Positions 1 through 56,011 of a stretch of 64,000 nt of DNA are shown here, in pieces. The translations under genes and the position numbers were made by a program. The stretch lies in NCBI GenBank assembly GCA_051294905.1, contig CM119371.1, forward strand, positions 30,940,001-31,004,000, read 5' to 3'. The number at the start of each line of letters is the position of its first letter. The stretch's first letter is position 1. The stretch is from Botryllus schlosseri (Eukaryota). Below the pieces are notes generated by a model. The model made no database searches, had not been told where the DNA came from, and saw only the letters and a list, made by a program, of their open reading frames with translations.

Positions 1-4
1 TTAC

Positions 5-18500: not shown

Positions 18501-19872
18501 ATAACCATCGTGAAAACCGATTGCTCAGATCCAATGACCAATATCGCACCTAGTGCAGAACAGGTGCCGCTGCTTCTCCATTCTATGTCAACTTTGCAAT
18601 AATCCGTGCCGGATTGCGAAGCCTTTATGCATATCGAGAACGCATAGATCTGCAAAATGTGAGGGTGATATCCATGTGTGGTTGAATACGTTACATGTTG
18701 CAAAGGATCAATGTTTCTTACCCCGACAAGCAAATCCGAAACAGCAAGATTCAATACCAATCGGTTCATTAGTTTATTTGATTCCGAGCTGATTCTCGCT
18801 TTACTGCTGATGATTACGGTCTTGATTATATGCCGTACGGATATAACAACTACTGCAGAGCATCCGACCAATGCCACCAAGCCTGAGACAGAGTGCGAAA
18901 CACATTGCTACGATATTTTGTTACATCGATGCACACATAGTGCCGTGACTATACAAAACTTATTTGGGACGATTTTTGCTCTGTAGCACCGGAACTCATT
19001 TGACACGACGATGATGAATTTGATATTACTGCATTGACGCAGAAAGAAGTATGAAATTCGTTAAGAATGATAGGCACACACATTTTCTCCTCGAATAAAG
19101 CCTATCCAGTATAAAAATACACATCTGTGTGGCAATTAGTATATAGGGCATGATTTGTTGCATTACGCACTGGTCGCCAATCCGGAATGTGGCGCGAAAA
19201 CATGAATTTCCGCTTAACTTCAGATCATGATGTACGATTTCGACTCCTGAAATCACTTGCAACCAGCAATCTTCGCATTTTGTATTGAAATAAAATTTAG
19301 GTCTTTAATTCTTTGTGGTTGTACTGCGTAACAGATAACGTCTTCGTAAGACAGGATCTTGTATACATAACGTAAAAGGGAAGTGATATTGTCGGTACTG
19401 TATAAGCACTTGGTGTAGCAGTCACTTGGCGCTTATGCTCTGCGCCATGTGCGCCGGAAGGCTGCTAGGGGCGGAAAATTGTGAGGTGAAGACCTTTTCT
19501 TTCATTTAGTTAGTCAACACAACAAGATATCCAATAAATACAATTCAACAGCTCGAAATTATTTCAAAATTTGGGCGGCATTTTCAACGAAAGCCATCGG
19601 CAGCAACATATGCCCCTATGCTATCGTGTTTGAGTGCAATTAAACAAACATGGCCAACCGTCATTGAATATGTCGTTTAATACACGATTAATACCTCGAA
19701 TTCTTGTATGAGAAAATGCACAAAATAAATTAATATAGCTACTTATTATCCAGCTGATTGCAAGAATTGATTTGTTGGTAATCATTGACTTTTCATCCGA
19801 GAAAGTGCTGTTAATACAACCGGGTTGACATTCATCGGATGCCGACTTACAATCCTTCACACCGTCACATAC
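12563..19872 (-). CDS. GPCR seven-transmembrane domain and C-tail (LGR/RXFP type)
   Basis: TM2 LNLAVSDLLVG; TM3 CSALGAILVIGSEQSVFTMVIIAAQRL; ECL2 GYYSSHTVCLP; TM5 LLINFSSFLFMVVCY; TM6 RIVISDFSCWIPICIMG; TM7 VPINSALNPLLYS. These match LGR/relaxin-receptor 7TM motifs. Stop at 12565-12563. Confidence 0.92.
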
Positions 19873-25714: not shown

Positions 25715-25748
<34 letters not shown>

Positions 25749-28700: not shown

Positions 28701-31700
28701 TAGTAAACATATTCTTCGATGTTTGAGCAAAATTCCGTGATCGAGTCATCGCAACGGCATTCTTCGTCCATGAAGTCCCCACATTCTGGTATTCCGTCGC
28801 ATGCAGTGGCGACTGAACATATAGATAATCCCCAGTCGTATATGAGATGAATAATTATCGCCGATGATCATATTAGTAAATCGACAAAGTACGGCAGCGA
28901 ACGCTGAATCAATATTTTAAAGTTGAATATATTCGGACAAAATACGATAAGTAAACAGCCATAGAAGTGTTATAATAGTATCAATGACTCGTATATTGTC
29001 CACAAGAAATTGCTACTTCTATATCGCAAAAAAAAATAATTAGCAACTACGCTTGATCACACTAAAAAATAACAAATTTTATTCATATATAATATATATA
29101 CTAATGTTTTAAAGAATTAAACAAGGATGATAATTAGCTTGTAAATTGCAATACTAACGTTTGTTTATGTGGTATGGGTGGACGGTGGTCACAAACACCG
29201 ATTAAAATTATTGATGTCGAGACAAATAAGACTTACATTTTCCTTCAGGATACGAACATTCATAGCCAGGTCTTGCATCCACGGATTTCTCGCCGGATGC
29301 TAGTAGAAATTAGAGGATTTCAATGTCAGTTTGATACTGAATAGGCTACATATCAGTAAGATGTCCTGGACAAATAGAATATAAATAGGTATTAGGATTA
29401 TTTGCGTAACGATATAGGGCAGTGGATCTCGACCGGGGCTCTGGAAAGCATTTTCAGGTGTCCACGATACCTCTGAATTTGTCATCTAAATCATTTCTAA
29501 CCTAATTAGTTGAGATGGTGAGAACCTGTGAAAGGTTCAGGTTTGTGTCAACGTGAATCTTTTCGAGAGGTTATGTGTGAACGCGAACGTGAACCTCATG
29601 ACGTCACGTGACGTCATATTGCTAATTCCAACCCTACATTTCAGTGAAGTGATAGCCGATATCAATATACACGATACCGAGCGACGACTCCTGCCACATA
29701 ATGCCACAATGCTGAAGTACATATTGACGTTTTGAACGTCGTCAAATGTATCAACTCTGGCAATCAAAGGATAACATAATTTCATGAAATCAATATCTTC
29801 CATCGCTTCGCCAACAATTTCGACGAGGATTTGCAAGGGAATATGAGCTTACGCCTTAACGGTCTAGTCAAGAGCGGACGATGTATTCGGCGTCTGAGTA
29901 TTGCTCACGTTGATATTGAGCAGAGTGTAAACGGGTTTTTATACTTGCTACCAACAGCCAGCAACCAACACCCCAATCAGTGATTAAATCAGGATTGAAT
30001 TCGTACACACCTGCTAGCTTTTTACATCAGACAACGATATCAACTTCATTGATTGGTTGAATATGCACTATTCGCTGACTACCTACATGTAATGTTCCCT
30101 CTAATTTTTGACGGGTCTGCCCACACTCACCAACTCACTGCGCAGACACTTGGAAAACAGTGCGTAACGACTAAAAAAAGGTCATCACTTCGGATTTTTT
30201 GTGCGCAACTTAGATTTTCTGTGCGCAGAGACCATGTCAGCACTGCGCATTTGCGCACGTGCGCAGCTTAAAGGGAACATTGCCTACATGTAGTGTATTT
30301 CGCTCTTGATGTTGGGTGATTGCGGGTCAAGCTCACAGCAGAGAGTCACTACATATTCGAGCAAACTTTTTTAACAAACCAAATAAAATTTTTGAGATTG
30401 TCAAGGTGCATGCTCGTTTAGTGATGATTTTCTATGCTGTCAGCGCCATGCATTGGCCTGCAGTTGAAATCAATAAATTGCAACCAAAGATGTTGTAATG
30501 AAGTGAAAATTGTAATATATGAAAAAGGTTTACAGTGCTGAGCCTACCAAGGTTCGTTTATGAACGTGAACCTCACGTTCACACGATCCCCACTAATTAG
30601 TGACTAACTAAATTAACGTAGATCCTATGAAGCAGTTACGAAAGAAATGTGGAGGCTCACATCAATAGAAGGGCCGTTTCGGACAATATATCTTAATGGA
30701 AACTCATTTAGTTGCCAGTAACTTATGAAGGGTTCCCTTCCCGCATAGGTTAGATCAGAGAGTTGTTATTATAATTGGTGTCAGTTGAGTTGTATTTGTT
30801 TGAATCTTGTCTAGAAGTAAATTGAAAACAAATAGTGAATTGTGACCCAATAGAGTAGGAATTATAAATCGCATCAATAGAAGCCGAAGAAATGGAAAAT
30901 AACACAATAGCACAGTTGCCTACAGTTTTTGTAATTTTATATCTTCAATCGCACTCCTGTTGCTGTACTGTGCATTGTTCCAATGGTTCAGTTCCTACTG
31001 ATTCCATTTATAAATCGGACAATTTCGAGTCACAATTCATCATTTGGTTTTGAATTTACCTTTCATTCTTGTCCCTAACCGTATCGGGCGCTTTTGATAG
31101 GGGGCACGCGTAAATAAACCCTATGACAAACGTATATACTATTTAAAGACATATTTAAATCCATTAAAACCCCGACGTCGGTGAAGGCATTCAATATGTC
31201 TTATGTTTAACGAATAAGCGACACCACGAAAACATGATGGTATCAAATACTATGGCAAAAACTTACCCTTCGATTGGCAATGAGTTTCATCTTCTTTGTT
31301 CTGGCAATCGAATCTAAATGTATGAAATGTGAAGTGCACTATTTAGTGTTTATCATTCATTACATAAACTTTTGTTGGGCACATCTCATTAATTAGGTAT
31401 CTGCTATAGCGGGTTTGCAGCGTCAGTTTTCCAACGCCATATTAAGGCGGTTGTGAATGATTATTCTCACGAATTTTAAAACAGCAACGTATTAAATATT
31501 CCGAATATCAATACCGTGCTATGGAGCCGTACTGCTGTCTGCGCGGGCAGTCACGCAATTCAACAGGCGGCTGATATGGATAGTCAAACGAAATATGTAT
31601 AAAATAATATCCGGCTCATTATTGGAATATGTTGACCATGACACATCCGAATGATTTCATGAAATTGTGGACATCGCGGTTTGATGGTCTATTAAAACCG

Positions 31701-34700
31701 TCATTTGCAAACGTCGTGCTCCGTTCTACGCAAAGAAGGCGTCGTTGTGTACCACATTTCGCAGTGACGCACCCAGAGCAGATACGGAATATGTAGTGAT
31801 GATACCATGACCGTCTTTACAGAGTGATGGGTGTAATGCCGCGTCATAGTTGGAGACGGTTCGATGTGCCATAGTGGGAGATTTCTGTAGTACGGTCACA
31901 TGAATTGTCCGAAGCTTATGACCATGCGGTGTTTTTTAAGGTGTTTTGTTATGCACCTCCGTAACTTCGGCGTTATCGTATTTCCAAAGGAAAGTCTCAC
32001 ACTTCAGATAGAGAACTGCTAATCTAGAAGTTCATGCAAGGACATTTTTTATGTCAATATCTAGCAGCTTATGCCGTTATATATATTGGTATTCAACTGC
32101 AAATCCCCTTAGTCCATCTATGTCAAATGGATGCCATTCGGATTTTGCATTTGCTTACTCCCGCAAACATTTCTCATACTGTTAGTAATTCAAATTCCAT
32201 AATTTCGATGACAATGCCATTGATTCATGAAAAATCTCGCGAAATGATTCCTACTGTAACAAATAGATTCCCACATAAACGCATAAAAGTATAACATAGA
32301 ATATACGGACCATGACCGACCATACTGTCGTACTATCACCCTGATTAGACAAAAGTCCGGGGTATACATACCTCATGTCACAAACTTTTGTTGCACTGAG
32401 TAATATTGTACTTTCACTTTCCAGTGACACGCATTCCAGAAAAGGTAAACTGGTAGTATTATTCTGATTTGAAACTAAATTGAGGCAATACCACGTATGT
32501 TACGGTTCTCATTCGATAAAGCAACGGATTTTACCATGAGATATCTTTTCGCATATTTTCGGTCGAACTGCGGACTCGCAGAGACATTCGTCAGTGAGGT
32601 CAGGGCAGTCGAATATCCGGTCACACAGCTTAGAAACAGGTAAAATTAAAACCGGGTAGCTCAAACACTGAAAACATCTTCCGTCCGAATGATCTGGTTG
32701 AAAACCAGTAAATGCGAAATCTGATGGGAAATTCCAATGAAACGTTTACTCACATGTATCGTTTCCGGGACAAATGCACTCGTCAAAATCTGTATTTATA
32801 GATGTTAAGTATTATTGGGAGTTATATACGGTAGCAGTAGTCTATCAGTAAGCCAGTTTAGATGCAGGCACTATCGAAATGGTATCAAACCCAAAATTGG
32901 AAGCGGACGAATTCCTCGGGCTTAGTATAGACACATCTGTTCACAGCATTAGAAATGGTCGTGCTTAATTCCCAAATTCAGAAAGTCGCATTCGGCCATA
33001 TCGCAGTGTCTGCATGAGACTGCACCATCACCGAAACACACATTGAGATTAATTGGCGCAAAGTGAATAAACCAGTTACGATTGTAGAATTTGACTGCAA
33101 ATACTGATATATTTTGGACAGCAAGCACAAAGTATTAAAACTAAGATATAGAAAACTCCATGATTGCCCTTAATCGAGAGCTTGTCGAGCAGCTGATGCG
33201 GTATTATATTTTCAATTTGGAGGATGCCAATTGTATACTCGGCTACGAGCCTCAACTTGACGACTAGCTGCTGTACCCGCGCCTATCAGACGCTGGATAC
33301 GCTGCAACAGGGGTCTGAAACACGTGTCACGCGTGCTTTTTGCAGGCCAGGAGTGAATATGGCAATAGTAAACCACATTTTCACGATGTGGGTTGAATAC
33401 CAGTCTGACAGGGCCCGTTAAATAAGGCTTACTTAGAAATACATTGAATAACCCTATTGTTGCTGCTGCTGCCCGCAGTGTCATCTATAATTGGGAAGTT
33501 GACCCGCGAGCACATTTGAGTTTGAGACCCCTGCGCTACAACTATGAATAACATTTTTCACGACGATCGCATCAATAGCACATCCTTTGAGACATGGACT
33601 ATCACAAATCGCTGATACCCCACGTCTTCTACACAGCACTTGCTGATGCTATTAGGATTGTGACACGGGAAAGGCATAAACTATTATTCACCATTGATCA
33701 CCATTTGCAAAGAGATTAACATAGATGTAGAACTAATATGCTCTTAAGATACTGTCGGGGGCGGCATGTTTGAGGCATATGCATACTTCACGCCATATTG
33801 TTTCATTCACTCGTATAATCGAATTGGTATTCTATTGTGGTAAGCTTGGTTAGCTTGAGGCTAAGAGCTTGTTGTAAAAAACTCTTCTCTCAGTAAAACC
33901 CAGCTAATATTTGCATTAATTCAATGGAAGCAACTTATGCCGAAAGCTACGCTTCATATGTGTAGTATACACCTACCATTATCGCACCAGGACACTCCAT
34001 CACAAATCTTGGAATCTGGTATCATGCACTGCCTCCCGTTGCGATGGCATATTCTGCCTTGGAAATTGGTTTGTACGGGATTTTCGAATTCGTCGCTCCC
34101 GTCTCTGCGTTGGGCAATATAGTTAGCGATTTGTGAATGTTAGAGGTACACAATTTCAGTAATACAATACATGGTCTTACAGACGCAAGGTGAAGAGTGG
34201 ACGATATTTCGTTTCTTTAATCCTTTTTACTCACAAATGCAACGAAAATATCGTCTTTTCGAACCAGAACGCTCTTTAGATATTGCAATAGAACTAACTG
34301 CCCTCTCTTGTTTTACAAGATTGCCAAGGGCGCGATCGAACCAATGTAATTATCTTGGGCAATATTCGTTGCTGACATTAGGCACGAAATTATTTTTAGA
34401 CTTCATGGGTACTGGAATCCAACCATTTGATGAATCATAAGTCTCTCATATGAAAGAGTTTGGTCGATCGAAAAAATCTGTCATCCGTGTTGATATTTAC
34501 CGGTAGCAACCACGTAACATATTATCTAGATCGGCCTACCAACCTACTGCATACAAAACAACATGCGAGGCACTTCGAACGCGTATCTCCAAGATCGTGA
34601 AAATGCAACGTACTTTGCTATCTTTTGAATTTTCTTTATAGGGGAGATCTCTTTCAAAATGGTTGATATAGATACTTACAAGGCGATACAGTATAATTGT

Positions 34701-37700
34701 GTTTTTCTCTTATGCATTGCACAATCGCCAAGTATAGTATATATTATTACTCACCCGCAATGTTCATATCCATCACAAAAAGCATCTTCACCGATACACA
34801 TTTCCCCGTCAGCACAGGCAAATTCATTCGCTCTACACGATGAGCCTGGAATTCCACGGATATGTTTATGCGTCTGGTCGTTATTTGACCAACTTATCCT
34901 AATTTTATATTCTATGATGTTTGACATGCTATATAATATAGTTTATAGATTTCATTGAATACAGAGAAATAGTCACCGTCGCACAGTGCATCCTTGTCCG
35001 GAGCGTATCTTGGCGGTAGTACACATACTAAGTAGTTATTATCACTCCAGTAGTGCGGGCGTCGGCACATATTCAATTCTTCGCCCGTGGTTTCAAGCGG
35101 GGGTACTTGTGGCTCGTCTGCACCGTCCCTGAACAAAATGAACATTTATTGATCTGGAAAACTCTTACGTTAATCTGCAAGACCCCGGAGAAATAGGCCT
35201 ACCAGTATTCGATGTGACACAAAAACGAGAAATTTACAAACATTGCACATGTAACTGTATATTAACTGCAAAACTTATAAATTACTAAAGATTAACCCTT
35301 CCCAGAATGAACAGTGCATTGAGATAGTGTTGTAAGAACAAAACCATTCAAATAAGATTTTCGCAAAAATGGAAGGATTATAATTAATACTAGTTGCAAT
35401 TCAATGTGACCTCTGCTGTCTCCTTCCAGAGACAACTTCAGAAGTGATAGGCTTCGCCTTGAAAAGTGCCATCGGCCGAAACGCAACAGCGTGATACCAA
35501 CCACATATATGCAAATGAGCTACTAAATACTAACCTCTCCTGCGTACGCCACTGTTCACTAGGGGTTGTTCAAAAACATCGCCTGACACCTATTACGGTC
35601 AAGACGCACGCGTTGTCACAAATACTATTTATGATTTAAGCGTGTGTTCGGACCTTCATGGAACCCTGGTTAAGAATCACTATAGTTTAAAATACAGGGC
35701 AAGGATTATGTCTAGTATTTTCATTCGTCTACTGATCAAAGGGGTGTGTACAAACAATAGCTAATGTGTCATTGTATGGTTATTTATTCAATAATCAGTG
35801 TGCCACATCGCTCCCAAGAGTACATTCATTGTAGGTTAGTATATATTTGATTGAACTCAAAAAAATAAGTTTTCAAATACCGCAAGGCCAAGTCCGTAAT
35901 ACTGGAAATTATGTGGTGATCGACGTTGTAAAACTCGAATTATGTAACAATTAGACAATCCAAAAGTACCACTTTAGTTTATAATGTCATGGTTTTTGTT
36001 CGCTCACTCTTCCAGCATCCAGAATTTCACGACATTGCAGTGTCGCATTTTGCGTTTTATATGCAATTTACAGCACATGCAGCATTTATGATAGTATCGA
36101 TCGGTATCTTTGCCTTTGCAGCCCTTCATACATTCTGTTTTACACGCGCCTGACTTCATTGTAAAGTAATTGCTGCCAAATTGCACGGTTTAACTCACCT
36201 GTGAGTTGCGATATCGCCTTTTCAAGAAGCAGTTGGTACAGTCGGAAGGGCGACGACGTACCGATTACGAACCTCCAAAACATGGACATTTGACAGAGTC
36301 GTGTACAATATGATTAAATTCTTATGCTTCTTTATTTTGACCATCGCATAGTTACTATACCATAGATAACTTCTCGTGTCGGTATTTCAAATTTACGTTT
36401 TAATACCATAATTTCCCAAATTGGTTTCATTTTTTTTTAATGCGTGGCATTGAGCCGTAAACTCCTGCTAACAGATGTGAAAAAACAATAGTCATAATTT
36501 TTACAACGAATCTTTTATTCACATTTGTTTTTAAGCAATAAATGGGAATAATATGCGCGCATTAGCTAACGTGTCACAGGAAGTAATTGGAGCAATAAGT
36601 GCAAACACCGACATTTCGGCTTTACGCAAAGAGTCACGTTACATAATATTTCTGTCTCATAGACATGGTCGGAAACAATATTGCAAAAGCAATTCCCTGA
36701 TGTGCATACTTCAATCACCACGACATTACGCTTTTAGATGAATACAGTTACCAGCTTATAGCACTTTCCTCAGATTTAAATGAAAATCCTAGCATTTGCA
36801 TTGGGTGTATGGTTGCATTTTAAACAAGAAATATTTTAAACATACATGTTAAAATCATGTTTAAATTGTTTTTTTCTCTTAGCCACGACGTTTCTTTAAT
36901 TGTGACGTGTTAGTGGATTGGCATTGACAATTGGAAATATAGTATAAATATGGATCCTTTGACTAAATAGAATTCCGCTCCCTGTAATAAAAGGAACGAA
37001 ATATCAGGGATGGTGAGAACGTCTGAAAGGTTCAGGTACGTGTGAATGCAAACCTTTTTGAAAGGTTCTGTTTGAACGCGAACGTGAACCTCATGGCGTC
37101 ACGTGAGGTAATAAGGTAATTCCAACCCTACATTTCAGTGAAGTGCTATATAAATGTACAGCGCGATATCTAGCTACGACTCGGGCCACATTATGCTACA
37201 ATGCTGACAGACTATACTGACTTTTTAAACGCTGCCAAATATATCAACTGGAGAAATCAAATGATATAATAATCCCACAAAATAAATATCTTCCGTCGCT
37301 TGCACACAATTTCGACGAAGACTTGCAAGGGAATAGAAGGTTGCGGTCTAACGGTCAAGGCCCGACCATAATATGTATTGCTACATTGATATTGAGCAGA
37401 GTCTAAATAGGGTTTCTGTACTTGCTACCAATATTATCCCATTAACAAGTTATACAGGAATAGCCAACACCCCGATCACACGGATTTGTTTTTTTAATAT
37501 ACAATAAACATATCAACTCAGCATGGTCCCCGTACGCATGCTATATTTTTTACATAAGCCAACGGTGTATTCTTTATATAAATTTCATAAATATGGTGAA
37601 AAATCATCATTGGCTGACTTAACCTACATGTACGTGTTTCGATCGTGATATCTTGTGATTGCGTGTGAAGCTCACAGCAGAGTGTCACTAAATATTTACA

Positions 37701-40700
37701 AACGGAAAATTAGATATTTCGAGCAAGCTTTTGTAACAAAGCAAGTAAATATTTTTAGATTGTCAAGGTTCAAGCTTGTTTAGTGTTGATTTTGTTATGC
37801 TTCCAGCACCATGCATAGAGTAGTCCGCAATTGAAATGCAATTAATTTTAAATGTTATGAGACGTGGAAAATTTGTAATACATGAAGTTCAGTGCAGAAC
37901 CTACCAAGGCTCGTTTGTGTACGTGAACCTCTAAATTTCTGAGGTTCACACACGGAACGAGAACGTGAGCCTCACGTTTACACCATCCCTACAAAATATC
38001 TTCACTCGGACTATATCAATGATATATGGGGTTCACACTATTCAATATCGTATACGTCGACTATATCAAGTGGAAATGGTTCGTAGGCTTTTCAAAAGTA
38101 TTCGCAGAAATATTTTTTTGTTTTTTAAAGTCGCATTTTTCTGAAACACCGTTAAAGACATGTTTCAAACAATATGATTCAAAACACCAGTTGTTTTATA
38201 CGCACCAACTTATGCAACTCTATTTGGGTGGCCGTATTCCCTGCTCCCCATATAGGCCTACCAGCACAGTGTTCAAGGATGGTATAATATTACTGAAGGA
38301 GCGACCATTAAGAATATGTTCGTAATGTAAGTATTTAAGATCAATAGAAGTATTCATTAAACGCCCAAGCGACTGATTTCCATCGCTAATCAATCACTGA
38401 TGGGTGGTACTTACGAACAGTCCTTTACGCCATTGCAAAATTTTTTCACAGGTATACATCTTGACCCACGATCACAGGAAACTTCGTCAATGGTGCATGA
38501 TGAGCCTGAACGATATTAATGACTTTTATAGCTAGTCTTTGTCCGGATTGGCAACCCGCAGCTCTTCCACGCATCTGCTTTGGCTCTTCGTAGCTTAGAA
38601 ACAAACTGTACGTTTATTTTAAGCCACACCATTGTCACGCTAAAGCAACCTCTTTACGTCATTGCATTTACGAATTGATTGTGACGTAATTCCCACAGGC
38701 CGTATGTCAGAAATGCAATATTATCAATCCCTAGCTCACTGATATAGACAGCTCTAGATGCCTCGGAAAGTTTGTCGTTGGAATCCTAGGTTCATCGAGC
38801 ATCATCAGAGTTTACATCGGCGTACTGATATCGCACCTAAGTACGGCTTCGTTGCAGCTTGCATCGCATAGTTATTTTTAAAGCCACGAAGTCACGAATA
38901 TTAAATTGTGGCGTCATGTAGGATTAACATTGACAATTGGAAATCTTAGGTTAATATAGCTGCTTTAACGAAATATTTGTACTATTGCTGTTGAACTGAC
39001 TATTTTGAGGGTTCCAACCATCCCATATCGACATATGTCGGCTACTATATTGGGTGGTAACTATCCGTATGCTCATACATGATTTTTGCAACGTATTTAC
39101 ACAATTATGGCATAATTTTGCCACACAATTTTTTTTTTCAAAAAGGCCTTTGTTTAAAATAGTGTGTTAAAACATAGTGTTTTAAATTGCCGTTTGTTCT
39201 AAATGCAAACCTATTTATATGCCATAGTTTACACTGTTTCCACAATTGAGATTCCGGATCGCTACTGAGAAGTTGTGGATCACGTTCTGTTTAGGTTATG
39301 ATTTCAGATGTACCTTGGCATAAATAGAATGACACTGCACGGGGCGATCATCATTTTGGAGATGAAATAGAATTTGCGGCTCCCGGGTCAATTTCCTTGA
39401 TGATAAATGCGCTGAATTAGCTGTTTCTATGTTTAATGTTTCCGACCTACGCAGTGGCAGCATGAGCTGCCCGCCCATGACTTTCGTTGAAAATGCCGCC
39501 CCCTCTAAGTAGACCGCAACAAATTTCGACATAGTTTCATGTTCAAGCAACCTCTTCAATAAAATAATTACAAATAACATGCCGCGTCTCGGAAGTTCTA
39601 TATTGCTTGAGAAGCAAGCCTCACAATTTCAGCGTTTATAAAGACAAAAACAATGAAGACAAGAAATGATGAACGTATGTATTAGGCAAATAAAAAAAAA
39701 ATTAATAGCCGCCTCAAAACTGAACTTTTCGGGCTTTCGCCGAAGCGAAATCAGCGGCAATATCCTCAAAATCAAGTTTTTAAACGTTGTCTCATGCTAT
39801 AGAAAGAATAGATAGAGGTGATAGCCGATCGTTACTCATGGTAGAACGTAAATAAGACTTAATAAGTTTGAGCTTTGACAGGCTCCTCTTACAGCTCGCA
39901 ATTGAAACACTGATGGTCAGACAAAGCTTCAGACACGAGCACGAGCAGGAATATGGAGTCGAATCAAGTAGGTGCGATTTAACTAACCACTGTAAAACAT
40001 CAAACGTTGTTGCAGTACGATCAAACGTTCTTTCAATGCTCCACACCCGCCTCCTAAATCTGTCAATTCCCGCAGCGAACTCCATTTTAACAATACTGGC
40101 CTTGATCAAAAGCCCTGTTGCCCTTATGCCGGAAATTCAATTTAAAAGTTGGTCAGGGCAAATGAAACCAACCCGAAATAGCCGCCTGAATATCGGCATT
40201 GTTGGGAATAATCACTCGATAAAATTCTAATTATCATAGGTAATTTGCAATTGTGTTGCGGCGCTTCGATTGCTCGGCTTTGACGGCCATTTCGGAGTGG
40301 TTCCACTGCCATGCTCATATTTTAATTTGTGTGTTTCGGAATCAGTGCGACAATAACTTCCGATTGAGACCAGTTTGATTAAATTTTAGCACTTGGGTCG
40401 CCAGCTATGGGACTACCAATTACGCGGCTTTAGCCGGCTGTGCGCATTACACACTTTGCACTGTGCAGCCTCATTTTGCATCCTCCCTGGAGCCTGCCGC
40501 CCCTGGCGCAAAGCCATAACCACCAAGTGGCCGCTACGCCACTGGACCCACATAGTCGAGTGCAAGTGTGATGCTAATACACACAGCATATCATGTCATT
40601 ACAGAGAGACATGTCCCTATATTTCAAAGATCGTGCATAAAAATTGAACAGTGTCATATTCAATACTACCACAGTGGTGATGACGTAATAGCCTACTCGT

Positions 40701-43700
40701 TAGCATATCGACAGAGCAACTTTCACTACGTGGTAATTAGGGACATGTAATTGGTTTACTACATTATCTATATGCCATTGGCTACACGATCAACGGTGAC
40801 TATATACTGTGGGATAATAAACTTTAGTTATGTCACTATGGGGATTTACAAGGCTCGCCCAATCAGACATCCGTGACTTTTAGCTATGAACACATCAAAT
40901 TGGATTTTTACAAAGAACTGATGTTATAATTTGCAATTGATCTCGTGTTCGCACGTGAACCAGAATTGATGCATATTTGACATTCGGGCTGTAATGTACG
41001 ATAGCTCCTCCACGTTGTACATGCAATAAACCAATGTGTTACCTTCACAGTATTCATTCATATCCGACCCCAACGCTGACGTTAGCACACAGACCCTCGC
41101 AAATCCATAACCTGAATTGTACCGGCGACAACTAGTTACGGTCGAATTGTAATTTATACCGTTGTTCCAGTAGGGCTCATCCGACCCGTCTCTGTTTAAA
41201 TAACTTCGTATAAATCAAATTGATCATTCAAAGTCACTGTACAGTGAACATACTTTCCAGAACTTATAGTTTATCATTACGAAGCGTCAAAACATTATCA
41301 CCACAGAAAGAGATGTTACCGGTAGCTACTTCTTTACCCTGTAACAGAATTGAATAGCTTCGTGCAAATCCAAATTCCCGTAATTCAAATTTTGTACACG
41401 TCACTTCAAAGACAAATATCAAGGACACCGCGAGATGATTTGTTGCAAATCACGAAATCCACATTGTACTAATACTAATACGCACATGCAGTCTTTGTAG
41501 TTGTCACAAAAGCGGGTTTTCGGAATGCACCTTGACCCACTGGAACAGGAAAATTCATTCATCTTGCATGAAGATCCTGAAATGAGAAACGAATATTATT
41601 TTCCATGAATATATACCCCGACATTTCGTTGAATTTGTTGAAATTCGAAATCTAACGTCGGTTATCTTCTTCACCAGCGCACCATTTAGGGTAAAAATTG
41701 ACGTTACGTTGAAATTGACTCATATAAATATTATGGAAGGTAGGCCTACATTTCAAGTGACCCATCATATCTCGTAACATTCGTACTTCGTATGACGCAC
41801 ATCATACACCCATATAGTGTGGAGGGTGTGTGAAGACTTATGTTCTGCCGTTACTTCATGCATTCAGAGTGGTACAATTCCTGGTTCCAAGTATCCAAGA
41901 CAACCACTACAGAGACACTTGTACAAAGCAGCGGATTTTCGAAATGCGCCACTACATCTAGAAGTAGAACTAATCGTTTATTTAAACCCACAACTAGAAT
42001 TAGATGAATTAACCATAACACAGCTAACTACGCTGGATTCCGTTACAAGGTATTTATGTTTATTTTATCGAATCGGCTTTACACGTGAGCATCGACGCGA
42101 CTCTGCAATCGGAGCGGTTTCGACCCCTAAACAGACCCTTGCTACCTAGCCTGTTATAGCTGTGATGACCCTGAGCTTGCAACGTCTGCGTAAACATCAC
42201 TTAGCATAACATCGGTATCACGATTCATGCCAAACGACGACAGATGCCTTCTTGTCGTTCGGCAAGTATATTTTTGTGCTCAACTAGAACTTGAACTACC
42301 AACATTTCAAAATTCGCAGCTGAAACTGCAACTACTAAGAAACAGTGGCTAGTTGGCCATCAACTATAAATAAATGGGAAGTTTATACAAGTCTGACTCA
42401 TACATACTGACTCTGGGTTAGGGGTATGACAACTAAATTGATTGTTGATTATTGCCTAGCTATACCTTACCGTCGCATAATGTCTGTTGGTAAGGAATGA
42501 GTCTTGCTGGCAATATACAGAGGCGGTAGACACCATGAGAAAAATCACTACTTCTGCATAAAGTTACGTTGTCGCGTCGATGAATGCTGTTGTCATACAA
42601 TGTATGTTCGTCAGACCCATCTCTGAAAACATTGCATATGTATGAAAATGAACTCACTCGTAGCCTATTATAGACCGTTACGTGTAGCCTACTGCATTGA
42701 AATGTTAGCATGCGACAATGGAGCAAGTGGGTCAACATTACCTGTGGATTCGACTTGTTGGTCATAAAGTCACACGCTACGTGTCGATCAAAATTTTTAA
42801 ACGTTCGGCTCGTTAAAGAATTGAATGAAATAAATTATTTTTATACAGTAGATATGACGACTCCATAATGACTTTTTGATGTCATCAAATCCTATACGAT
42901 AAACACGTGCACAACTCCATAAATCGCGCAAGTTTACTTACGGACAATCAGTTAGTCCATTACAAAATCTATCTTTAGAAATGCAATGTGATCCATCCGC
43001 GCAACTATACTCCTCCAGAGTACACAACGAGCCTGCAATAAACATATCCTATTATTGATCTACAATCTACATCATCATTCAAAATTATTTAAAATAGCAT
43101 GTAGTGGAAATATGACATCACATATTTCGCTATAGCGTGGTGCTTGGATGAAGTACCGTTTCCCATGAAATTATTTTCAGGGAGCTCAAAATTTTACTCC
43201 TCGTCGATAAACAAAAGTTCGAATCCCAGCCACTATGAAATTGTTCCTTCCTTGAGAGGAATTTTGCTACTGTTAGCGAATATGCTCAGAGGTTAGTGGC
43301 GAACCGCATGTTGGTGACCCTACTATAAATATAATTCCAAATTGTGAAGCTAAGTAATTTTGCCATAAAAACTATTCAAGTGGTAGTAGAAGCGAGTTAA
43401 GTCAGAATCAATTTCAGTATTTCGATAAAGTAGAACTAGCCTACTTCGGTACTGACCACCTCTGCATGCATGACCGATCAAGACCACTCACATGATACCG
43501 AGTTGCACCAGTCCCAGAGGCTCGAAATCAGACAATAGCGAATATACCCATACCGGTACAGACGTTTTCCATTTGAGAAACCACAGTTGGCGGGAAAACG
43601 CATATCCTTCCCCGTATTTCCCCGCCTTCATATCTTCCACGACAGAAAGTAGAATTAGCATCGTAGTTTGCGTTATGTTTCCTTAATGGGGGCTCATCCG

Positions 43701-46700
43701 AGTTATCGCTGAAAGATAATTGTAGAAGTATACAGACAAATATTTTAAATCACCTTTCAGTGGGACTCGCAGGTAAAAGCTCTAATAATGCCTCAGTATA
43801 TATTCCATAGCTGTTATAATTACGTTTTATTAGCTCAGAGAAAACATCATTTATAATCTGCATTTTGGTGCCGTCATATAGTGATGAGGACCCAGCGACG
43901 TCCACCACAAACTGCACAACGCGCGCGCCTAAACACTTCCTACCTTTGGCAAGAAAAATAGACCTATACGATTGTTATGTAAATGGTGGAGCCTAAATTC
44001 GTTGTTATGAAAAATGAACGCTGAAAAAGGCTTCCCAACTCACGAATTTGGTCGCAGTATTCAAGGAAATCACAATCACAATCAATTTCAATTGGCTAAT
44101 GCAAATATCCTCAATATAACTAAATTCACTGCTTACGATGCGTGATCAACTGATCATACTTACTTGCAGTGTTCCCACTTATCACAAACCAAATCCGACG
44201 GAACACATCCCGAACCATCCGTACAAGCGAACTCGTTGCTCTTGCACGACGAACCTGAACCAAGTGAACATAAATGACGAACATTATTTTGAAATTACTC
44301 TATAGATTTTAGAAAGGGATTCAACATAATCTCGCATCAATCAAAACCTAATAAACTTCCAAATATTTAAATCCTCAATTTTCCGAATCATAGAGTTGAC
44401 GGATGCATAACTCCGCATTGCAAGATTTTGACTACGAGATCTCACATTTGTCGCATATTCGAATATACGTTTAGTGCAGTCACTTGTAAAATAAATATAG
44501 CCTGCAAGAACATTGCCTAATATTACATGGTACCGCAGTGCCCTACAACAACCCGTGGCGCTATCTACGACCCCTTTACACTATGTGCTTGCGACTTATT
44601 GCGAGCAGTCCCTGCGATGTTAAATGCAGTCCTTGAGTTGATGAAAGTAGCCAGTGTTGGTAGTCAGGTAGTAGTGTATGTAGCGTGGTAAATTTCTATT
44701 CAATAGCGAATGGAAGTAGCTATCTTCAATATAGGCCAAAACTACTTTAGGTACGGAAGGAGAAAAGAACGGTAAGTATTCAAGATGTAGATTCAAAAAG
44801 TCTTCGATACTATTAGCAACTCAAAGTATTGAATAGTATATTCATACTGAAACGGTGACGTCATTTTGTGATATGATTGTCGATATACCATGTTTGTTCA
44901 AATTCTCTACTAGCTGCAGACGATAACCCTGACAAGTGTCCGCCGCAAATATTCGGGTTCATTTCAATATGAAGATACTATTTCATTTTCTATTGAAGTT
45001 CTGTACCTCCGAGAAACTCATATGAGGTGGTGTCCTCCGAGATTTCAAGATCTATCTGCGTGAATAACGCAAAATGACTAATGATTCTACAAAATATGGG
45101 ATATTTTCGGAAATATACTCGGTTCCGGTGATGCAAGGGTTATTCTTTCAATTTCATAACAATTACACTTATGGCGAGATGTAAACCTACGAAAACGGGT
45201 TTTCACTTGGTAATAGCAACAGTTTAAAATGTTATTAGTTTTTCCTTCTTCTGAAAACCGGTCTAATAGCAGAAGTTTGAAGTAGTCTAAAAACACAGCG
45301 ACTTGAATACGTTGTACAGGTAGGCGAATGAAGTGCCTTGAAAGTACAACTACCTCCTTACTGAGCATCTCTGTTTTAGTGTCACTATGCGGCTAAACAT
45401 ATGCCAAGTTATGTAACTCTAAATAAAGGAATATCGCGATTGGTGAGATTCCAGTAAAACTCAACGTAATAAAAATGCGATTAAAGAACACATAGTGGAC
45501 ATAGATATCTAGCACATCTGGATTCCTAGTTAAATATTATTCACCGTCACATAGTAGATCTCGGTAAGGCATCAATGCAGGTGACAAAACATAAACCGGA
45601 TTGAGCCCTCTCCATGTTTGTACCCTACAGAAAGTAACATTTGCGGCGTACGTGACGTTGAAATCCCGCCTTGCGGACTCATCGGATCCGTCCCTGAAAT
45701 GTAAAAGAAATTATCATCTTTAAAGAGTTAGTGGCCTGAGACGACTTTGCCCGACATCGCAATCTGTTATGGCTGATAAACGGGTGAGGCGTCGTTAATG
45801 CCCAAATTCACGCGACTTCAAGGCTTAACCACATGATAGAATTATGTAGACAAATACACTGAATACACTATACCAGTGGTTCCCAACCTTTTTCGTCTCG
45901 TGGACCCCTTGGACGATATTTGAGCTAAAATTCCCCGCTATGAATAAGTTGCCTGTGACTAAAAAAGGTGCTTTTTACCGCACAACCATTTGTTGACTGA
46001 GCAATATATGGCCAAACATATTCAGATATGTCCGAATTATGTCGAATGCGGACCGAATTACACTCTGGTAAAGTACAGCTAAATTCGACCTATTTTTACC
46101 GGTTGGGTAGATGCCGAAGAAAAATAAATCACCAAGTCCACTTGCTATGACCTTCAGTTGAATCGACGAATTTGGTATGCTTTTTCACGTGAGCTCATAT
46201 GTTGGCTAAAAAGGTAAACATTTTCACCAGCGGCGTTTCGCTGAATTCGTCTTGACTTTTTCCTAATCAGTAGCAATTTGCTCGATAGGCAGTCACGGGT
46301 CTGACTCGAGTCAGACTCAAGTCACTTTTTCCTATGACTTGACTTGACTCGAGTCACTTTGCTGAAATGACTTGACTTGACTTGACTCGGCGTATCAGAA
46401 ATGTGGTTTGACTCGTGACTCGGAGCAAAATTCACGAGTCAATTTCAAGTCATCAAGTAATCGGTGTCGATAAAAATCACTGTATCTTGCATATGTTCGG
46501 ATTATTCGCGCAAGGCTGGTGTAACCCGTGAGAGCGACCAATCATTCAATGATCGTGCGTTTTACTGAGCCTCCATTGTTTTCTCACAAATATATTGATG
46601 GCAAACGAAGTGATCGAAGCTTACAGCCTACATTGTCGTAAACTATAGTATAGTAAAGTAGTCTAATAGTAAAATGTATATTTCTGTTCTGTGTTCTTAA

Positions 46701-48838
46701 CTTAACCAAACCTCTTGTTTTATTGAAACTTAATTCGAAAATAGTTTATATAGTCCTCAACCATTGGCGCAGGCTCGAATTGTATCATATCAATTTTCAA
46801 ATGGGTAATGTATTGCATCTTATCTCTATTTTTGCTGGTAACTATAAACTGAGGCTGTACTATTACTTACGTAGTTTATTAGTTCTACTTATATGTGAGT
46901 GATACATCGCCTTACTTGCGTGTATATTTAACTCTATATTCGTTCATCGGTTCAAAATCAATGACCACTCACTCTGTATTCCAGACAGCTAGTAAAATGC
47001 AATGACGTAATCATACCTCAAAAACGCAATTTGACTTGAATTGTGACTTGACTCGTGATTTGACTTGACTTGACTCGAGTCACCTCCAAAAATCGACTGA
47101 CTTGACTTGACTCGAGTCACCTTCGAAAATCGATTGACTTGACTTGACTAGAGTCAAAATGTGCAATGACTCGAAATGACTCGTGACTCGAAGGTAGTGA
47201 CTTGATCCCAACACTGGAATCATCTCGCGAGCCTAACTTTATCAGGTGGTGTAATATCTACGGAAGGAATTGAAACATCCACCTAGCTTAAAATCCGCCA
47301 ACGAAACATACAATTGTAAAGAACTAGTTTCATCCTTAACAGTTATACCATAAAAATTTAAAAACCTTGCAAGCCCAGTGTGTCCTCCGCTTCAAACCTA
47401 AAGCCGCATTCCCCCTGAAAATTTCAAAACTTGTCCCAAGGGACGAATTAACCCCCGGTTGCGAACCACTGCACTATACCCATGAGAAAAAAAAAACAAA
47501 ATTGGTGTATTTCCCTATTGAAAACAAAATTTGGTGGTAATGATGTCATTTTTACCCTACGCTATCACAGAAAGTTGGTGAATACACCTATTTTCTATTC
47601 GTGTATTTACAGTCCCCTGCTGCATTTATATCTCAATGTTAGTCAAGCCATGTCATGTCATCGGTGTCCAGCTAGGCGACGTTATACTGTGGGCTCTCGA
47701 CCGCGGCACTATCACGCCAATAGTATATTTAACGTGCAGTGTTGCCTGACCGATATCTTCACTTCATCACCTGTTGAAGGAGCAGCACTCCAAAAGATCG
47801 TGTGTGTAGAGAAAACGTGATCATTTGAAAAATAGCGTTTGAAACCAATGGCGGAAAGGTGAAAAAAACTTACCAGTATAAATATCTCTATAGACCGGAG
47901 GAAATAATATTATATACTCAATAGTAGGGATGTTGATATGTTGAATTATGAAATGAACATGTGCATTTGATCGTATTGTCAACATTTGAAATTGAAAATA
48001 TCAAATGCTAGTGGTTATTTTTTTGGTTTCAGTTAAAAATGTCATTTAAAATGTTGGTGTAGCCGTGCTGGTCTCAATGGTTTCTCGATAATGCAGAGAA
48101 ATTCATTGAAGTTAAAATGTGGGACCGCCATAATACATGACGCAGTTGGACCATAGGTGGCAAAATTAGTCTGCGTTTCTTTTCAAGTAGGAGCAGACGG
48201 TACGCCGTATCGGGCTATCTCAATTCAAGGAGGTCATAGCGATTTCCCCGACATGTGAAGACTACTTAAAGTGAAAGGTTCGAGAGTGATGCAAGTAGGT
48301 AGTATCAAATGGTAGATTTGATGGAATATGGTCGCCTACGAAGCAGTAAATCTGAGGTGTGCACTGTGCATACTCTCAATATTGCAAGATTTACAGAGGC
48401 GACGAGCGCAAAATGAGTAATTATACTATCTGAACGTAGTATCCACCACTATATATATTCAGTTACCGCAACACAAGCGGTATTTAACACGGTGCTCGTG
48501 AGAACATCAATCATCAAGGTGAAACAAATTACTTCTAAATGACAAATTGACGCAGCTTTTCTCAAACGAAAGCCACAATGCCAAAGTTACGAATTTGTAC
48601 AGCAGCCATTTTTTAAAACATTAATTCTGATATTTGGCTGCATGCCTCTGAGAATTATTGACAAAGGCTTTAGAAGTGGAAGCAAAAGATGAAATATTTG
48701 TAACAATGAGTGAAATGAAACTGATTTCCGTCAGCACTGTTACGCACGGGCAATCTTGTTGGCCGCTGAAAACTGCATACTTTGTCAAGCATCTTGAGCC
48801 ATCGGCACATTCGAATTCGTTTGCGGTGCAAGAGGATC
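12563..48838 (-). CDS. Multi-exon LDLa-repeat rhodopsin-class GPCR (LGR/RXFP/GRL101-like 7TM, no LRRs), 5'-partial, about 1140 codons
   Basis: Manually threaded exons, 5'->3' on the minus strand: 48838-48748, 45693-45545, 44254-44164, 43708-43554, 43032-42942, 42622-42471, 41576-41486, 41191-41043, 38505-38415, 35128-34977, 34845-34755, 34104-33977, 32789-32754, 32693-32535, 32474-32372, 31313-31267, 29299-29237, 28812-28656, 25489-25376, 24623-24560, 21378-21292, 19872-19743, 18882-18722, 18649-18468, 17710-17585, 16980-16762, 13782-13640, 12762-12563. All introns are GT..AG with matching phases, giving one open frame. No start or signal exon was confidently found. Confidence 0.85.
13811..14564. 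mobile_element. hAT MITE of the GACTCGAGTC family (related to 103-2157)
   Basis: Decayed termini AAGGCTGTAA...TTACAATCCTG; TSD GTGCAAAT/GTACAAAT; same subterminal arrays. Confidence 0.8.
14191..14383. mobile_element. 193-bp hAT MITE nested in 13811-14564
   Basis: CAATGTTCCCTCTAA...TTAGAGGGAACATTG; TSD CTGAGCAG; same family at 30090-30282. Confidence 0.9.
15755..16550. mobile_element. hAT MITE with GACTT/GACTC pentamer arrays
   Basis: CAGTGATGGGAT...ATCCTAACACTG; TSD CCGTATTG/CTGTATTG; inverted relative at about 46290-47216. Confidence 0.8.
19743..34104 (-). CDS. GPCR ectodomain, proximal part: about 7 further LDLa-like modules and hinge into TM1
   Basis: Spliced translations include KICDGVSWCDNDFDECIC, KLCDRIFDCPDLTDECLC, KVCDMRFDCQNKEDETHC, ACDGIPECGDFMDEECRC, MCDGQMDCNDYADEIGC, KCDKQNDCENEADEANC and VCDGVKDCKSASDECQPGC. 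These carry the CDxxxDCxxxxDE acidic Ca-cage motif of LDL receptor class A repeats. Confidence 0.88.
22071..23841. mobile_element. hAT MITE containing nested MITEs
   Basis: CAGTGTTTCCCAACC...GGTTGGGAGCCACTG; perfect TSD ATTTAATG. Confidence 0.88.
22230..23423. mobile_element. hAT MITE nested in 22071-23841; probably hosts a third element at about 22790-23107
   Basis: CAGGGATGTCAAAC...GTTTGACACCCCTG; perfect TSD AACTAGGC. Inner candidate TAGGGGTG...ACCCCTG with flanks AGTTAAAG/GACTAAAG. Confidence 0.85.
26995..27311 (+). mobile_element. tRNA-derived SINE
   Basis: A-box-like TGGCGCAGTTGG, B-box-like GGTTCGAGTC and (AAC)n tail. A diverged copy at about 49655-49980 shares CCATGTTTCTATGTGT.GGAGG. 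Confidence 0.7.
29510..30592. mobile_element. hAT non-autonomous element (GTGAAC-repeat termini)
   Basis: TSD CTAATTAG (29502-29509, 30593-30600); collinear with the copy at 37005-37991. Confidence 0.82.
30090..30282. mobile_element. 193-bp hAT MITE nested in 29510-30592
   Basis: Inverted copy of 14191-14383; TSD CCTACATG. Confidence 0.9.
33308..33533. mobile_element. Short hAT MITE
   Basis: CAGGGGTCT...AGACCCCTG; TSD CGCTGCAA/CGCTACAA. Confidence 0.8.
33977..48838 (-). CDS. GPCR ectodomain, distal part: six tandem exon pairs encoding atypical LDLa-derived repeats
   Basis: Six exons of exactly 91 nt (e.g. GSSCKSNEFACTDGSGCVPSDLVCDKWEHCN, GSSCKMNEFSCSSGSRCIPKTRFCDNYKDCI) alternate with 128-155 nt exons starting DGSDE/DNSDE/DGADE (e.g. 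DGSDEHTLYDNSIHRRDNVTLCRSSDFSHGVYRLCILPARLIPYQQTLCD). Confidence 0.88.
37005..37991. mobile_element. hAT non-autonomous element, second copy of the 29510-30592 family
   Basis: CAGGGATGGTG...CACCATCCCTA; TSD CGAAATAT/CAAAATAT. Confidence 0.82.
39452..40544 (-). mobile_element. Degenerate hAT element with transposase C-terminal remnant
   Basis: CAGTGGC...GCCACTG termini; flanks GACCTACG/GACCCACA. ORF 39792-40109 ends LCLTISVSIASCKRSLSKLKLIKSYLRSTMSNDRLSPLSILSI, a hAT dimerisation motif. Confidence 0.85.
45874..47471. mobile_element. hAT MITE with nested GACTT-array element (about 46290-47216)
   Basis: CAGTGGTTCCCAACC...GGTTGCGAACCACTG; perfect TSD CACTATAC. Confidence 0.88.
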
Positions 48839-51087: not shown

Positions 51088-51437
51088 TGAGAGAGAGGAA
51101 GAGAGAGAGAGAGACAGAGAGAGAGAGAGAGGAGCGAGAGAGGGAGAGAGAAAGAGAGGAGGGAGAGAAGGAGAGAGAGGAGAGAGAGATAGAGAATAGA
51201 GCAGAAAGAATAGTGGGGGAGAGAAAGAAGGGAATGAGAGCATATATAAAGGAGAGAGAGAAAGAGAGAGGGGAGGGAGAGGGGAGGGGAGGAGAGAGAT
51301 AGGGGGGAGAGATAGAGAATAGAGCAGAAAGAAGAAAGGAGGAGAAAGAAGGGAAAGGGAGCATAGAGAAAGGAGAGCGAGAGAGAGAGAGAGAGAGAGG
51401 GGGGAGGGGGAGGGGAGGAGAGAGATAGGGGGGAGTG
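51088..51437 (+). repeat. Complex (GA)n polypurine microsatellite with internal duplication
   Basis: About 350 bp, almost purely purine on the + strand; GAGATAGAGAATAGAGCAGAAAGAA occurs twice. Confidence 0.9.
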
Positions 51438-55969: not shown

Positions 55970-56011
55970 GGCTATCAGACAATCTCATCATCATAGATCC
56001 ACTTTTTCGTA

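What the first reader, a model, noticed from the sequence alone, without database searches (positions are those of the whole stretch)
33977..48838. Ectodomain built from a two-exon, 8-cysteine LDLa-derived repeat, tandemly repeated six times
Seen: six exons of exactly 91 nt (phase 1->2) encode LDLa Cys1-Cys5. Each splices to a 149-155 nt exon (phase 2->1; the sixth is 128 nt and divergent) that supplies the DGSDE acidic motif. The canonical sixth Cys just after DE is missing. Instead there is a ~45-aa, often N-glycosylation-sequon-bearing segment with three Cys (C-R...C-V/I-L/F...C-D/E/T-G). Known: canonical LDLa is ~40 aa with 6 Cys. Inference: this ~80-aa phase-symmetric cassette may be an unnamed composite module. 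Its inter-Cys sequence differs greatly between units, as expected for a diversifying ligand-recognition surface.
Basis: partly seen in the sequence, partly recalled or inferred. Interest (0 to 1): 0.82.

Follow-up and report, generated by a model that had tools for sequence, protein, structure and literature searches.

The report
Fused LDL-repeat pair in sea-squirt receptors
A sea-squirt cell-surface receptor gene repeats an 80-residue unit that looks like two LDL-receptor-type repeats fused and trimmed into one unnamed domain with a variable, positively charged loop, a real and apparently undescribed variant inside an already known receptor family whose ligand is unknown.

Summary
The repeat is real. 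It is the outer arm of a minus-strand ascidian LDLRR-GPCR gene (LDLa repeats, no LRR, relaxin-receptor-like 7TM). Corrections: only units 2-5 have 8 Cys, unit 1 has 6, and unit 6 is another type. Segment B has no Pfam or PDB match, but is most likely the remnant of a second LDLa repeat. Styela, Phallusia and Clavelina receptors carry a 10-Cys pair (LDLa without Cys6, then LDLa without Cys1) with the same 13-residue Cys spacing (33 of 35 cases). A spliced Styela clava model has four 8-Cys units. Cysteine parity, and joint loss of Cys4 and B's middle Cys in unit 1, point to a bond between the two repeats (inferred, not shown). I read 73 B exons in this genome. The frame is under purifying selection (dN/dS about 0.3). 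Only one Arg-rich loop (6-19 aa) varies strongly (0.77, not above 1). The classical LDLa ligand pocket is mostly lost. RNA reads did not cover the exons. Verdict: new variant of a known kind; ligand-surface role plausible, unproven.

The parts
48748..48838 (-). Exon A1: LDLa Cys1-3 and Cys5; Cys4 replaced by Phe
45545..45693 (-). Exon B1 (149 nt): acidic motif, linker, Ca and Cc; middle Cys (Cb) replaced by Tyr
44164..44254 (-). Exon A2: LDLa Cys1-5
43554..43708 (-). Exon B2 (155 nt), three Cys
42942..43032 (-). Exon A3: LDLa Cys1-5
42471..42622 (-). Exon B3 (152 nt), three Cys; query of the B-only model
41486..41576 (-). Exon A4: LDLa Cys1-5
41043..41191 (-). Exon B4 (149 nt), three Cys
38415..38505 (-). 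Exon A5: LDLa Cys1-5
34977..35128 (-). Exon B5 (152 nt), three Cys, no sequon
34755..34845 (-). Exon A6: LDLa Cys1-5
33977..34104 (-). Exon B6 (128 nt): acidic motif plus Cys2'-Cys5' of a complete second repeat (terminal, ancestral-type unit)
32754..32789 (-). 36-nt micro-exon supplying D-E-C-x-C (Cys6' and an extra Cys) to unit 6; also in paralogue L028
32535..32693 (-). Exon with the tunicate-type C-F-x-C ... D-E-C-x-C LDLa-like repeat, typical of LDLRR-GPCRs
   Evidence: same motif in Ciona models
19741..32474 (-). Further predicted LDLa-like juxtamembrane exons (32474-32372, 31313-31267, 28812-28656, 25489-25376, 24623-24560, 21378-21292, about 19875-19741); exon chain not fully resolved
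12563..18889 (-). Exons of the rhodopsin-family 7TM domain (relaxin-receptor/GRL101-like), ending at a stop near 12563
   Evidence: (7tm_1 E 8e-4)

Best explanation
The gene is an ascidian LDLRR-GPCR whose N-terminal arm is a string of fused LDLa pairs. Step 1 (shown by sequence comparison): ascidian receptors carry a 10-Cys pair, an LDLa without Cys6 followed after an 8-19 residue linker by an LDLa without Cys1. Step 2 (inferred from cysteine parity, using the recalled textbook bonds 1-3, 2-5, 4-6): the orphan Cys4 of the first repeat bonds to the orphan Cys3' of the second and locks both into one domain. Step 3 (spacing shown, history inferred): in the Styela-like lineage the second repeat lost Cys4', Cys6' and its acidic calcium tail and ends just after Cys5'. 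That leaves 8 Cys: 1-3, 2-5, 4-Cb (=3'), Ca-Cc (=2'-5'). Step 4 (shown): both exons together are phase 1-to-1, and the cassette is tandemly repeated, five times here and at least ten times in one paralogue. Step 5 (inferred function): the first half stays a calcium-stabilised LDLa scaffold, the glycosylated linker shields it, and the hairpin of the second half shows an Arg-rich loop of variable length. That loop is the most likely surface for binding large, probably acidic extracellular ligands, with signalling through the 7TM domain. The ligand is unknown.
For: Family: 7TM exons; best named hits are Styela GRL101-like/relaxin-receptor-like proteins; no LRR; family defined in PMC2396169. Ancestral pair: 35 LDLa motifs without a nearby Cys6 in 16 of 43 homologues; 33 of 35 have a Cys 13 residues after the Cb-equivalent. 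Of these, 21 are complete (Cys4' at +8, then Cys5', D-E, Cys6'), 7 lack Cys4' but keep Cys6', and 5 are the truncated 8-Cys type. Own units have Cb-Cc = 13 in 47 of 50. hhalign aligns Cb-Cc to Cys3'-Cys5' without a gap in that segment, E 5e-4, probability 31%. Copies on C3, C13 and C15 end C-x-D/E, like Cys5-x-D. Ciona models show the same motif by eye. Bond: unit 1 lost Cys4 and Cb together; chance of two of three losses in one unit 0.05, and of exactly that pair 0.002. Coding and folded: 50 of 52 units keep 8 Cys with no stop; dN/dS about 0.32 in the LDLa half, the linker and Cb-to-end; spliced Styela model P0013 has four units; AlphaFold2 of one Styela unit gives pLDDT 79.9, pTM 0.66, its first half matching LDLa structures at rmsd 0.6-0.9 A over about 35 residues; LDLa C-termini superpose onto model residues 50-65, so the B hairpin lies where Cys6 normally sits. 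Loop: 6-19 aa, 23% Arg against 4.5% elsewhere, mean charge +2.5 against -4.7 for the LDLa half, dN/dS 0.77. Sequon in 49 of 52 B segments, 57 against 18+-4 in shuffles.
Against: No disulfide was observed. The co-loss is a single event, and the 0.002 figure is for a pair named after seeing it. One paralogue unit lost Ca alone, so unpaired Cys can occur. The superposition ends split between the Ca strand (50-55) and the Cb strand (59-65), so the model does not pick Cys4's partner. B has no profile similarity to the A exons, and in the model it is a hairpin plus helix with no fold match. Only 27 of 52 B segments beat the 95th percentile of Cys-fixed shuffles against the full-type profile. The five AlphaFold2 models range from 56.7 to 79.9. 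No exon reads or junctions of this gene in four RNA runs. No start or signal-peptide exon could be joined to A1. Loop dN/dS includes 1 and fits relaxed constraint. No ligand or expression data for this gene.
Confidence: 0.65

Rival explanations
1. Same fused domain, but it is a structural spacer: a stiff, glycosylated stalk whose loop drifts under relaxed constraint, while ligand is bound by the juxtamembrane repeats or the 7TM loops.
For: Loop dN/dS 0.77 (0.50-1.09) is not above 1. Unit number varies between paralogues (5 here, at least 10 at C1:31.57-31.61 Mb). Units keep position-specific identities across paralogues (tree). In RXFP1/2 the LDLa module is not the ligand-binding part (PMC4561518 passages).
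Against: The loop keeps a positive charge in 48 of 50 units and Arg after Ca in 49 of 50, which pure drift would not keep. About 45 close paralogous ectodomain exons in one genome suggest diversification of the outer part.
Confidence: 0.3
2. Other connectivity: Ca is simply a displaced Cys6 (bond Cys4-Ca) after a 15-residue insertion, and Cb-Cc close a separate small appendage.
For: Ca is the first Cys after the acidic motif. About as many LDLa superpositions end near Ca (model 50-55) as near Cb. B shows no profile match to the A exons.
Against: Unit 1 lost Cys4 with Cb, not with Ca. In the 21 complete pairs this scheme would need a non-canonical Cys3'-Cys5' bond. Ca follows F-x or another hydrophobic residue, like LDLa Cys2.
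Confidence: 0.15
3. Classical LDLa function: the units bind lysine/arginine residues of lipoproteins or protease complexes through the acidic calcium cage, as proposed for Ciona LDLRR-GPCRs.
For: Hypothesis in PMC2396169 section 14. The D-x-x-D-E motif is invariant in 52 of 52 units.
Against: The exposed aromatic residue and acidic positions used for such binding (PMC5847621 passages; mapping to Cys4-2, +1, +3, +5 is my own) are mostly absent: Trp at Cys4-2 in 0 of 50, any aromatic in 10, Asp/Glu at +3 in 4, all four in 1 of 50.
Confidence: 0.1
4. The B exons are not constitutively spliced in, or this copy is a decaying gene.
For: No exon reads in four RNA runs; 5' exon unresolved and a LINE lies upstream; unit 1 lost two Cys; B5 has a weak donor.
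Against: Skipping B would join a phase-2 end to a phase-1 start and shift the frame. Sixteen exons join without a stop. Paralogous B exons are under purifying selection. The Styela model includes them.
Confidence: 0.07

Closest known systems
Ciona LDLRR-GPCRs (Kamesh et al. 2008, PMC2396169)
   Same: LDLa-type repeats at the N-terminus, no LRR, relaxin-receptor-like 7TM, lineage-specific expansion; same C-F-x-C / D-E-C-x-C juxtamembrane repeat; Ciona models carry LDLa motifs without Cys6 followed by a C..C-x-L-P segment (by eye).
   Different: The paper says most repeats follow the classical LDLa structure and, in the parts I read, does not describe the Cys6-less pair. The truncated 8-Cys unit was not seen in the 24 Ciona passages shown.
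Styela clava LOC120346100 (P0013) and LOC120338026 (P0023), RefSeq 'uncharacterized' proteins
   Same: Signal peptide (P0013), four tandem 8-Cys units, one complete terminal pair, C-F-x-C repeat, 7TM: the same architecture. Arg after Ca in 5 of 5 truncated units.
   Different: Shorter linkers (11-15 against 15-17 residues after D-E) and shorter loops; about 45% identity in the 7TM exon; annotated only as LDLa plus 7tm_1.
LDLa / complement-type repeat (Pfam PF00057)
   Same: First half matches by sequence and predicted fold; acidic calcium motif kept.
   Different: Cys6 absent; 8 Cys in about 80 aa; second half has no calcium motif and a predicted helix; usual ligand pocket mostly missing.
GRL101 / type C LGRs (RXFP1, RXFP2; snail GRL101 clusters, PMC12297450)
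   Same: Related 7TM with LDLa modules; clustered paralogue families; a snail GRL101 cluster is associated with schistosome resistance (passages).
   Different: Those have leucine-rich repeats (and a lectin domain in the snail cluster); none was found here.

Membership tests
Ascidian LDLRR-GPCR | Rhodopsin-family 7TM similar to INSL3/relaxin receptors | tested here: met
   7tm_1 hit; a profile of a 7TM exon retrieves Styela 'relaxin receptor 1-like' and 'GRL101-like' proteins at E about 1e-26; tblastn tiles TM1-TM7
Ascidian LDLRR-GPCR | One or more LDLa repeats in the N-terminus | tested here: met
   6 of 6 A exons hit PF00057, 5 above cut-off
Ascidian LDLRR-GPCR | No leucine-rich repeats | tested here: met
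   No LRR hit in the exons scanned or in the full-length Styela homologue of the same architecture; its ectodomain tiles onto the window directly into TM1. Some small exons remain unresolved.
Ascidian LDLRR-GPCR | Expression in blood cells (EST-based in Ciona) | tested here: inconclusive
   Four bulk RNA runs of unknown tissue gave no exon reads
Canonical LDLa module (PF00057) | Six Cys in about 40 aa with Cys6 shortly after D-E | tested here: not met
   Next Cys lies 20-22 residues after Cys5 in 50 of 50 eight-Cys units
Canonical LDLa module (PF00057) | Acidic calcium-binding motif after Cys5 | tested here: met
   D at Cys5+2 and D-E at +5/+6 in 52 of 52; Cys4+1 is D in 32 and N in 18. Calcium binding itself not tested.
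Canonical LDLa module (PF00057) | LDLa fold of the first half | tested here: met
   Model of the Styela unit against CD320, VLDLR, LRP1 CR7, LDLR LA5: rmsd 0.6-0.9 A over 34-36 columns, Foldseek probability about 1, E 0.008-0.1; Z up to 4.8
Canonical LDLa module (PF00057) | Disulfides 1-3, 2-5, 4-6 (recalled) | not testable with these tools
   Model coordinates are not returned; connectivity inferred from parity and co-loss
LDLa ligand-binding repeats of the LDLR family | Exposed aromatic residue plus acidic residues that grip a ligand Lys/Arg | tested here: not met
   All four positions present in 1 of 50 units; Trp in 0 of 50 (feature described in PMC5847621)
Second LDLa repeat (for segment B) | Homology of Ca, Cb, Cc to Cys2', Cys3', Cys5' | tested here: inconclusive
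   Spacing identical in 33 of 35 homologue motifs and hhalign E 5e-4 but probability 31%; no match to A-exon profile; no LDLa fold match for B alone
GRL101 / type C LGR | LRR domain between LDLa and 7TM | tested here: not met

The most novel reading that the evidence does not exclude
The unit is a new disulfide-locked binding scaffold made by fusing two LDLa repeats, and its Arg-rich hairpin loop works like a CDR. Dozens of receptor genes, each with 5 to 10 or more different units, would give styelid ascidians a germline-encoded repertoire of recognition GPCRs for microbes, conspecific cells or settlement cues.
Probability: 0.18. Interest if true: 0.78.

Novelty: new variant of a known kind. 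Interest (0 to 1): 0.5.

Why it matters
LDLa repeats are treated as independent 40-residue beads with three internal disulfides. An ascidian-wide pair joined by a bond between repeats, later trimmed to a domain with a new display loop, would be a clear case of a domain born by fusion and loss, with all intermediates (10-Cys, Cys4'-less, 8-Cys) still present. It explains why Pfam sees only half of these ectodomains, and it weakens the published guess that these orphan receptors bind lipoproteins through the usual LDLa pocket. It gives a small expressible unit and one defined loop to test in a large orphan GPCR family of the closest invertebrate relatives of vertebrates.

Tried and rejected
RNA: no indexed RNA holder was listed. 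Four raw bulk runs (about 5.9 billion letters, 6-13% of each run) covered only intronic repeats and showed no joint at the exons; this does not test splicing. Complex prediction of exon A3 with exon B3 and calcium: no verdict, score 0.12, alignments not used; not evidence either way. Fold searches of B alone: Foldseek best E 4.7, VIA no match at Z 2 or more; absence shows no new fold. PDB sequence search with the B profile: one chance row at E 0.53. Pfam on 52 B segments: best family in 3 of 52 at E 0.003, taken as chance. ESM Atlas: B exon gave only low-recognition bacterial rows; the Styela unit gave generic LDLa clusters. Representative search with five B exons: 9 hits, 6 read as unspliced B-exon ORFs from unnamed ENA/Logan contigs, 3 unrelated repeats. 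It missed the Styela proteins, so it is not sensitive enough to prove absence outside tunicates. A 52-sequence B profile against longer proteins found 1 of 2888 candidates, again an exon ORF. A single 7TM exon query found nothing. My first idea that Cc is Cys4' (because of the C-D-G ending) was dropped: the 13-residue spacing fits Cys5'. Using superposition end points to name Cys4's partner was inconclusive. A candidate signal-peptide exon at 59335 does not join A1 in frame. Rfam: no match. Literature searches listed no paper on this unit; the library lacks most subscription journals, and InterPro, SMART, CDD and PROSITE were not available. A Ciona immune-cell preprint had no occurrence of LDL, GPCR, RXFP, relaxin or LRP.

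Full report
Observation. The finding lies on the minus strand. Twelve AG/GT-bounded exons alternate between 91 nt (A, phase 1 to 2) and 128-155 nt (B, phase 2 to 1) at the coordinates given under parts. An A-type scan finds 6 on this strand, 0 on the other and 0 in 30 shuffles, and 16 exons from A1 onward join without a stop. A exons match Pfam Ldl_recept_a up to Cys5; the five regular B exons match nothing. Three corrections matter. A1 lacks Cys4 (TTC) and B1 lacks its middle Cys (TAT), each one base from a Cys codon. B6 has four Cys and is completed by a 36-nt micro-exon with D-E-C-x-C. So there are four 8-Cys units, one 6-Cys unit and one terminal unit of another type.

The gene. Downstream lie tunicate-type LDLa-like exons and then seven-transmembrane exons ending near 12563. 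No LRR was found. This is the LDLRR-GPCR architecture described for Ciona by Kamesh et al. 2008 (PMC2396169; passages; section 14 in full; text passages of supplement 1; the domain figure in supplement 3 could not be seen as a picture and may bear on what they noticed). The closest named proteins are from Styela clava, then Phallusia and Clavelina, so the window is taken to be from a Styela-like ascidian. The 5' exon is unresolved.

Spread in this genome. One B exon gave 61 matches at E up to 10; a 7TM exon gave 86 at E up to 0.01, about 60 of them strong. Nine TM6 exons lie in tandem at C1:30.93-31.73 Mb. In the window and about 205 kb of that cluster I read 55 A-then-B units, 52 regular and 3 terminal. 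Eighteen further B exons were read in 19 loci on C1, C3, C5, C13, C15 and C29; the C5 locus had none. Of 73 regular B exons, 71 keep all three Cys. One paralogue has at least ten regular units in a row. Only part of the cluster was read, so all counts are lower bounds.

Anatomy. In the 52 regular units (73-90 aa, no stops) 50 have 8 Cys. Spacings are nearly fixed (6, 5, 6, 5, 20-22, variable, 13 in 47 of 50) except Ca-Cb, which runs from 6 to 19 residues and is 23% Arg against 4.5% elsewhere. Sequons occur in 49 of 52 B segments (57 against 18+-4 in 200 shuffles), nearly all in the linker before Ca. Arg follows Ca in 49 of 50; the loop averages +2.5 and the LDLa half -4.7. Fifteen non-overlapping closest pairs (pS up to 0.45, chosen from 50 units) give dN/dS 0.32 for the LDLa half, 0.31 for the linker, 0.32 from Cb to the end and 0.77 (0.50-1.09) for the loop. 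Choosing low-pS pairs inflates these ratios, loop alignments are uncertain, and no pair includes this gene's own units, whose synonymous sites are saturated. On the tree, units group by array position across paralogues (22 of 49 inner branches well supported).

Origin of B. Among 43 homologues retrieved by the 7TM profile, 24 hold 127 LDLa-type acidic motifs; 35 of these, in 16 proteins, lack a Cys within five residues after D-E. In 33 of the 35 a Cys lies 13 residues after the second following Cys. Twenty-one are complete second repeats lacking only Cys1 (Styela, Phallusia, Clavelina, one unnamed). Seven lack Cys4' but keep Cys6' and sit before the C-F-x-C repeat. Five, all Styela, are the truncated type with Arg after Ca; that Arg is in 0 of the other 28. 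Styela P0013 has a signal peptide, four truncated units, one complete pair and the 7TM, the same layout as this gene. Ciona models show the Cys6-less motif too (by eye). B6 with its micro-exon has the complete 7+5 spacing. hhalign pairs Cb-Cc with Cys3'-Cys5' (E 5e-4, probability 31%); 27 of 52 B segments exceed the 95th percentile of Cys-fixed shuffles. B does not resemble the A exons. The homology therefore rests on spacing, position and intermediates more than on scores.

Disulfides. With the recalled bonds 1-3, 2-5, 4-6, the complete pair leaves exactly Cys4 and Cys3' unpaired, so they most simply bond to each other. Loss of Cys4' with Cys6' removes one whole canonical bond and leaves Ca-Cc as 2'-5'. 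Unit 1 lost Cys4 and Cb together (0.05 for two of three losses in one unit). Against this, one paralogue lost Ca alone. AlphaFold2 gives B alone pLDDT 71 with a hairpin and a helix, and a Styela unit pLDDT 79.9, pTM 0.66, with a wide spread among models. Its first half is LDLa. LDLa C-termini land on model residues 50-65, so the hairpin sits beside Cys4, but the rows split between the Ca and Cb strands.

Function. The calcium motif is kept, but the aromatic and acidic positions that grip ligand lysines in LDLR-family repeats (PMC5847621 passages) are complete in 1 of 50 units. This weakens the lipoprotein hypothesis of PMC2396169 for these units. The variable basic loop on a conserved frame is the best candidate surface. 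A spacer role remains open, and in RXFP1/2 the LDLa module activates rather than binds (PMC4561518 passages). Ciona ESTs for the family came mostly from blood cells, and a snail GRL101 cluster is linked to parasite resistance (PMC12297450 passages); both are analogies only. Four RNA runs gave no exon reads, so expression and splicing of this gene are not shown.

Novelty. The family is known and the proteins are in RefSeq as uncharacterised. Eight literature searches (listings only, apart from the papers named) showed no description of the pair or of the 8-Cys unit, within an open-access library. Earlier scan notes held none either. Whether the pair exists outside tunicates was not settled. Verdict: new variant of a known kind, interest 0.5; the repertoire reading has probability about 0.18.

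Noticed in passing
window 52826-56776, minus strand: Apparently intact non-LTR retrotransposon: 1053-aa ORF with PHD, endonuclease and reverse transcriptase, and a 254-aa ORF1 with coiled coil and Baculo_FP-like hits; probably in the first intron or just upstream of the receptor gene.
   Followed up: partly
window 1-2690, minus strand, continuing to G000:C1:30937689: A second receptor copy about 82-90% identical in the last ectodomain and 7TM exons. No LDLa exons were found in the 10 kb between it and the main gene, so it may be a partial duplicate without the outer arm.
   Followed up: partly
G000:C1:41319173-41327824, plus strand (L043): Two B-type exons with no C-F-x-C or 7TM exon listed downstream (lower-bound searches): possibly a secreted, orphan or differently ended gene.
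   Followed up: partly
G000:C1:31650478-31668071: Two terminal-type and C-F-x-C exon sets (one with a stop) without a listed 7TM exon before the next array: partial duplicates or one very long gene.
   Followed up: no
G000:C29:119753-195545 (L013, L014, L016): Near-identical A+B units in tandem, a recent expansion of the cassette.
   Followed up: partly
G000:C3:18667770-18669923, C12:16588325-16590220, C13:11.95-11.99 Mb, C6:10.58 Mb, C1:17.8-18.0 Mb: Related receptors in long open frames of 430-865 aa, that is intron-poor copies, several with canonical LDLa repeats.
   Followed up: no
window 32535-32693 and homologues: The C-F-x-C repeat lacks Cys3, and the preceding repeat carries one spare Cys (D-E-C-x-C, or Cys6' without Cys4'), which suggests further bonds between repeats along the whole ectodomain.
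   Followed up: partly
window 59251-59335, minus strand: Signal-peptide-like short frame upstream of the LINE; neither donor joins A1 in frame.
   Followed up: partly
window introns, for example 36890-37960, 38000-39120, 44830-44990, 46300-47220: Dispersed repeats and MITE-like elements that collect nearly all RNA reads; short tandem arrays listed, GA-rich tract at 51089-51440.
   Followed up: no
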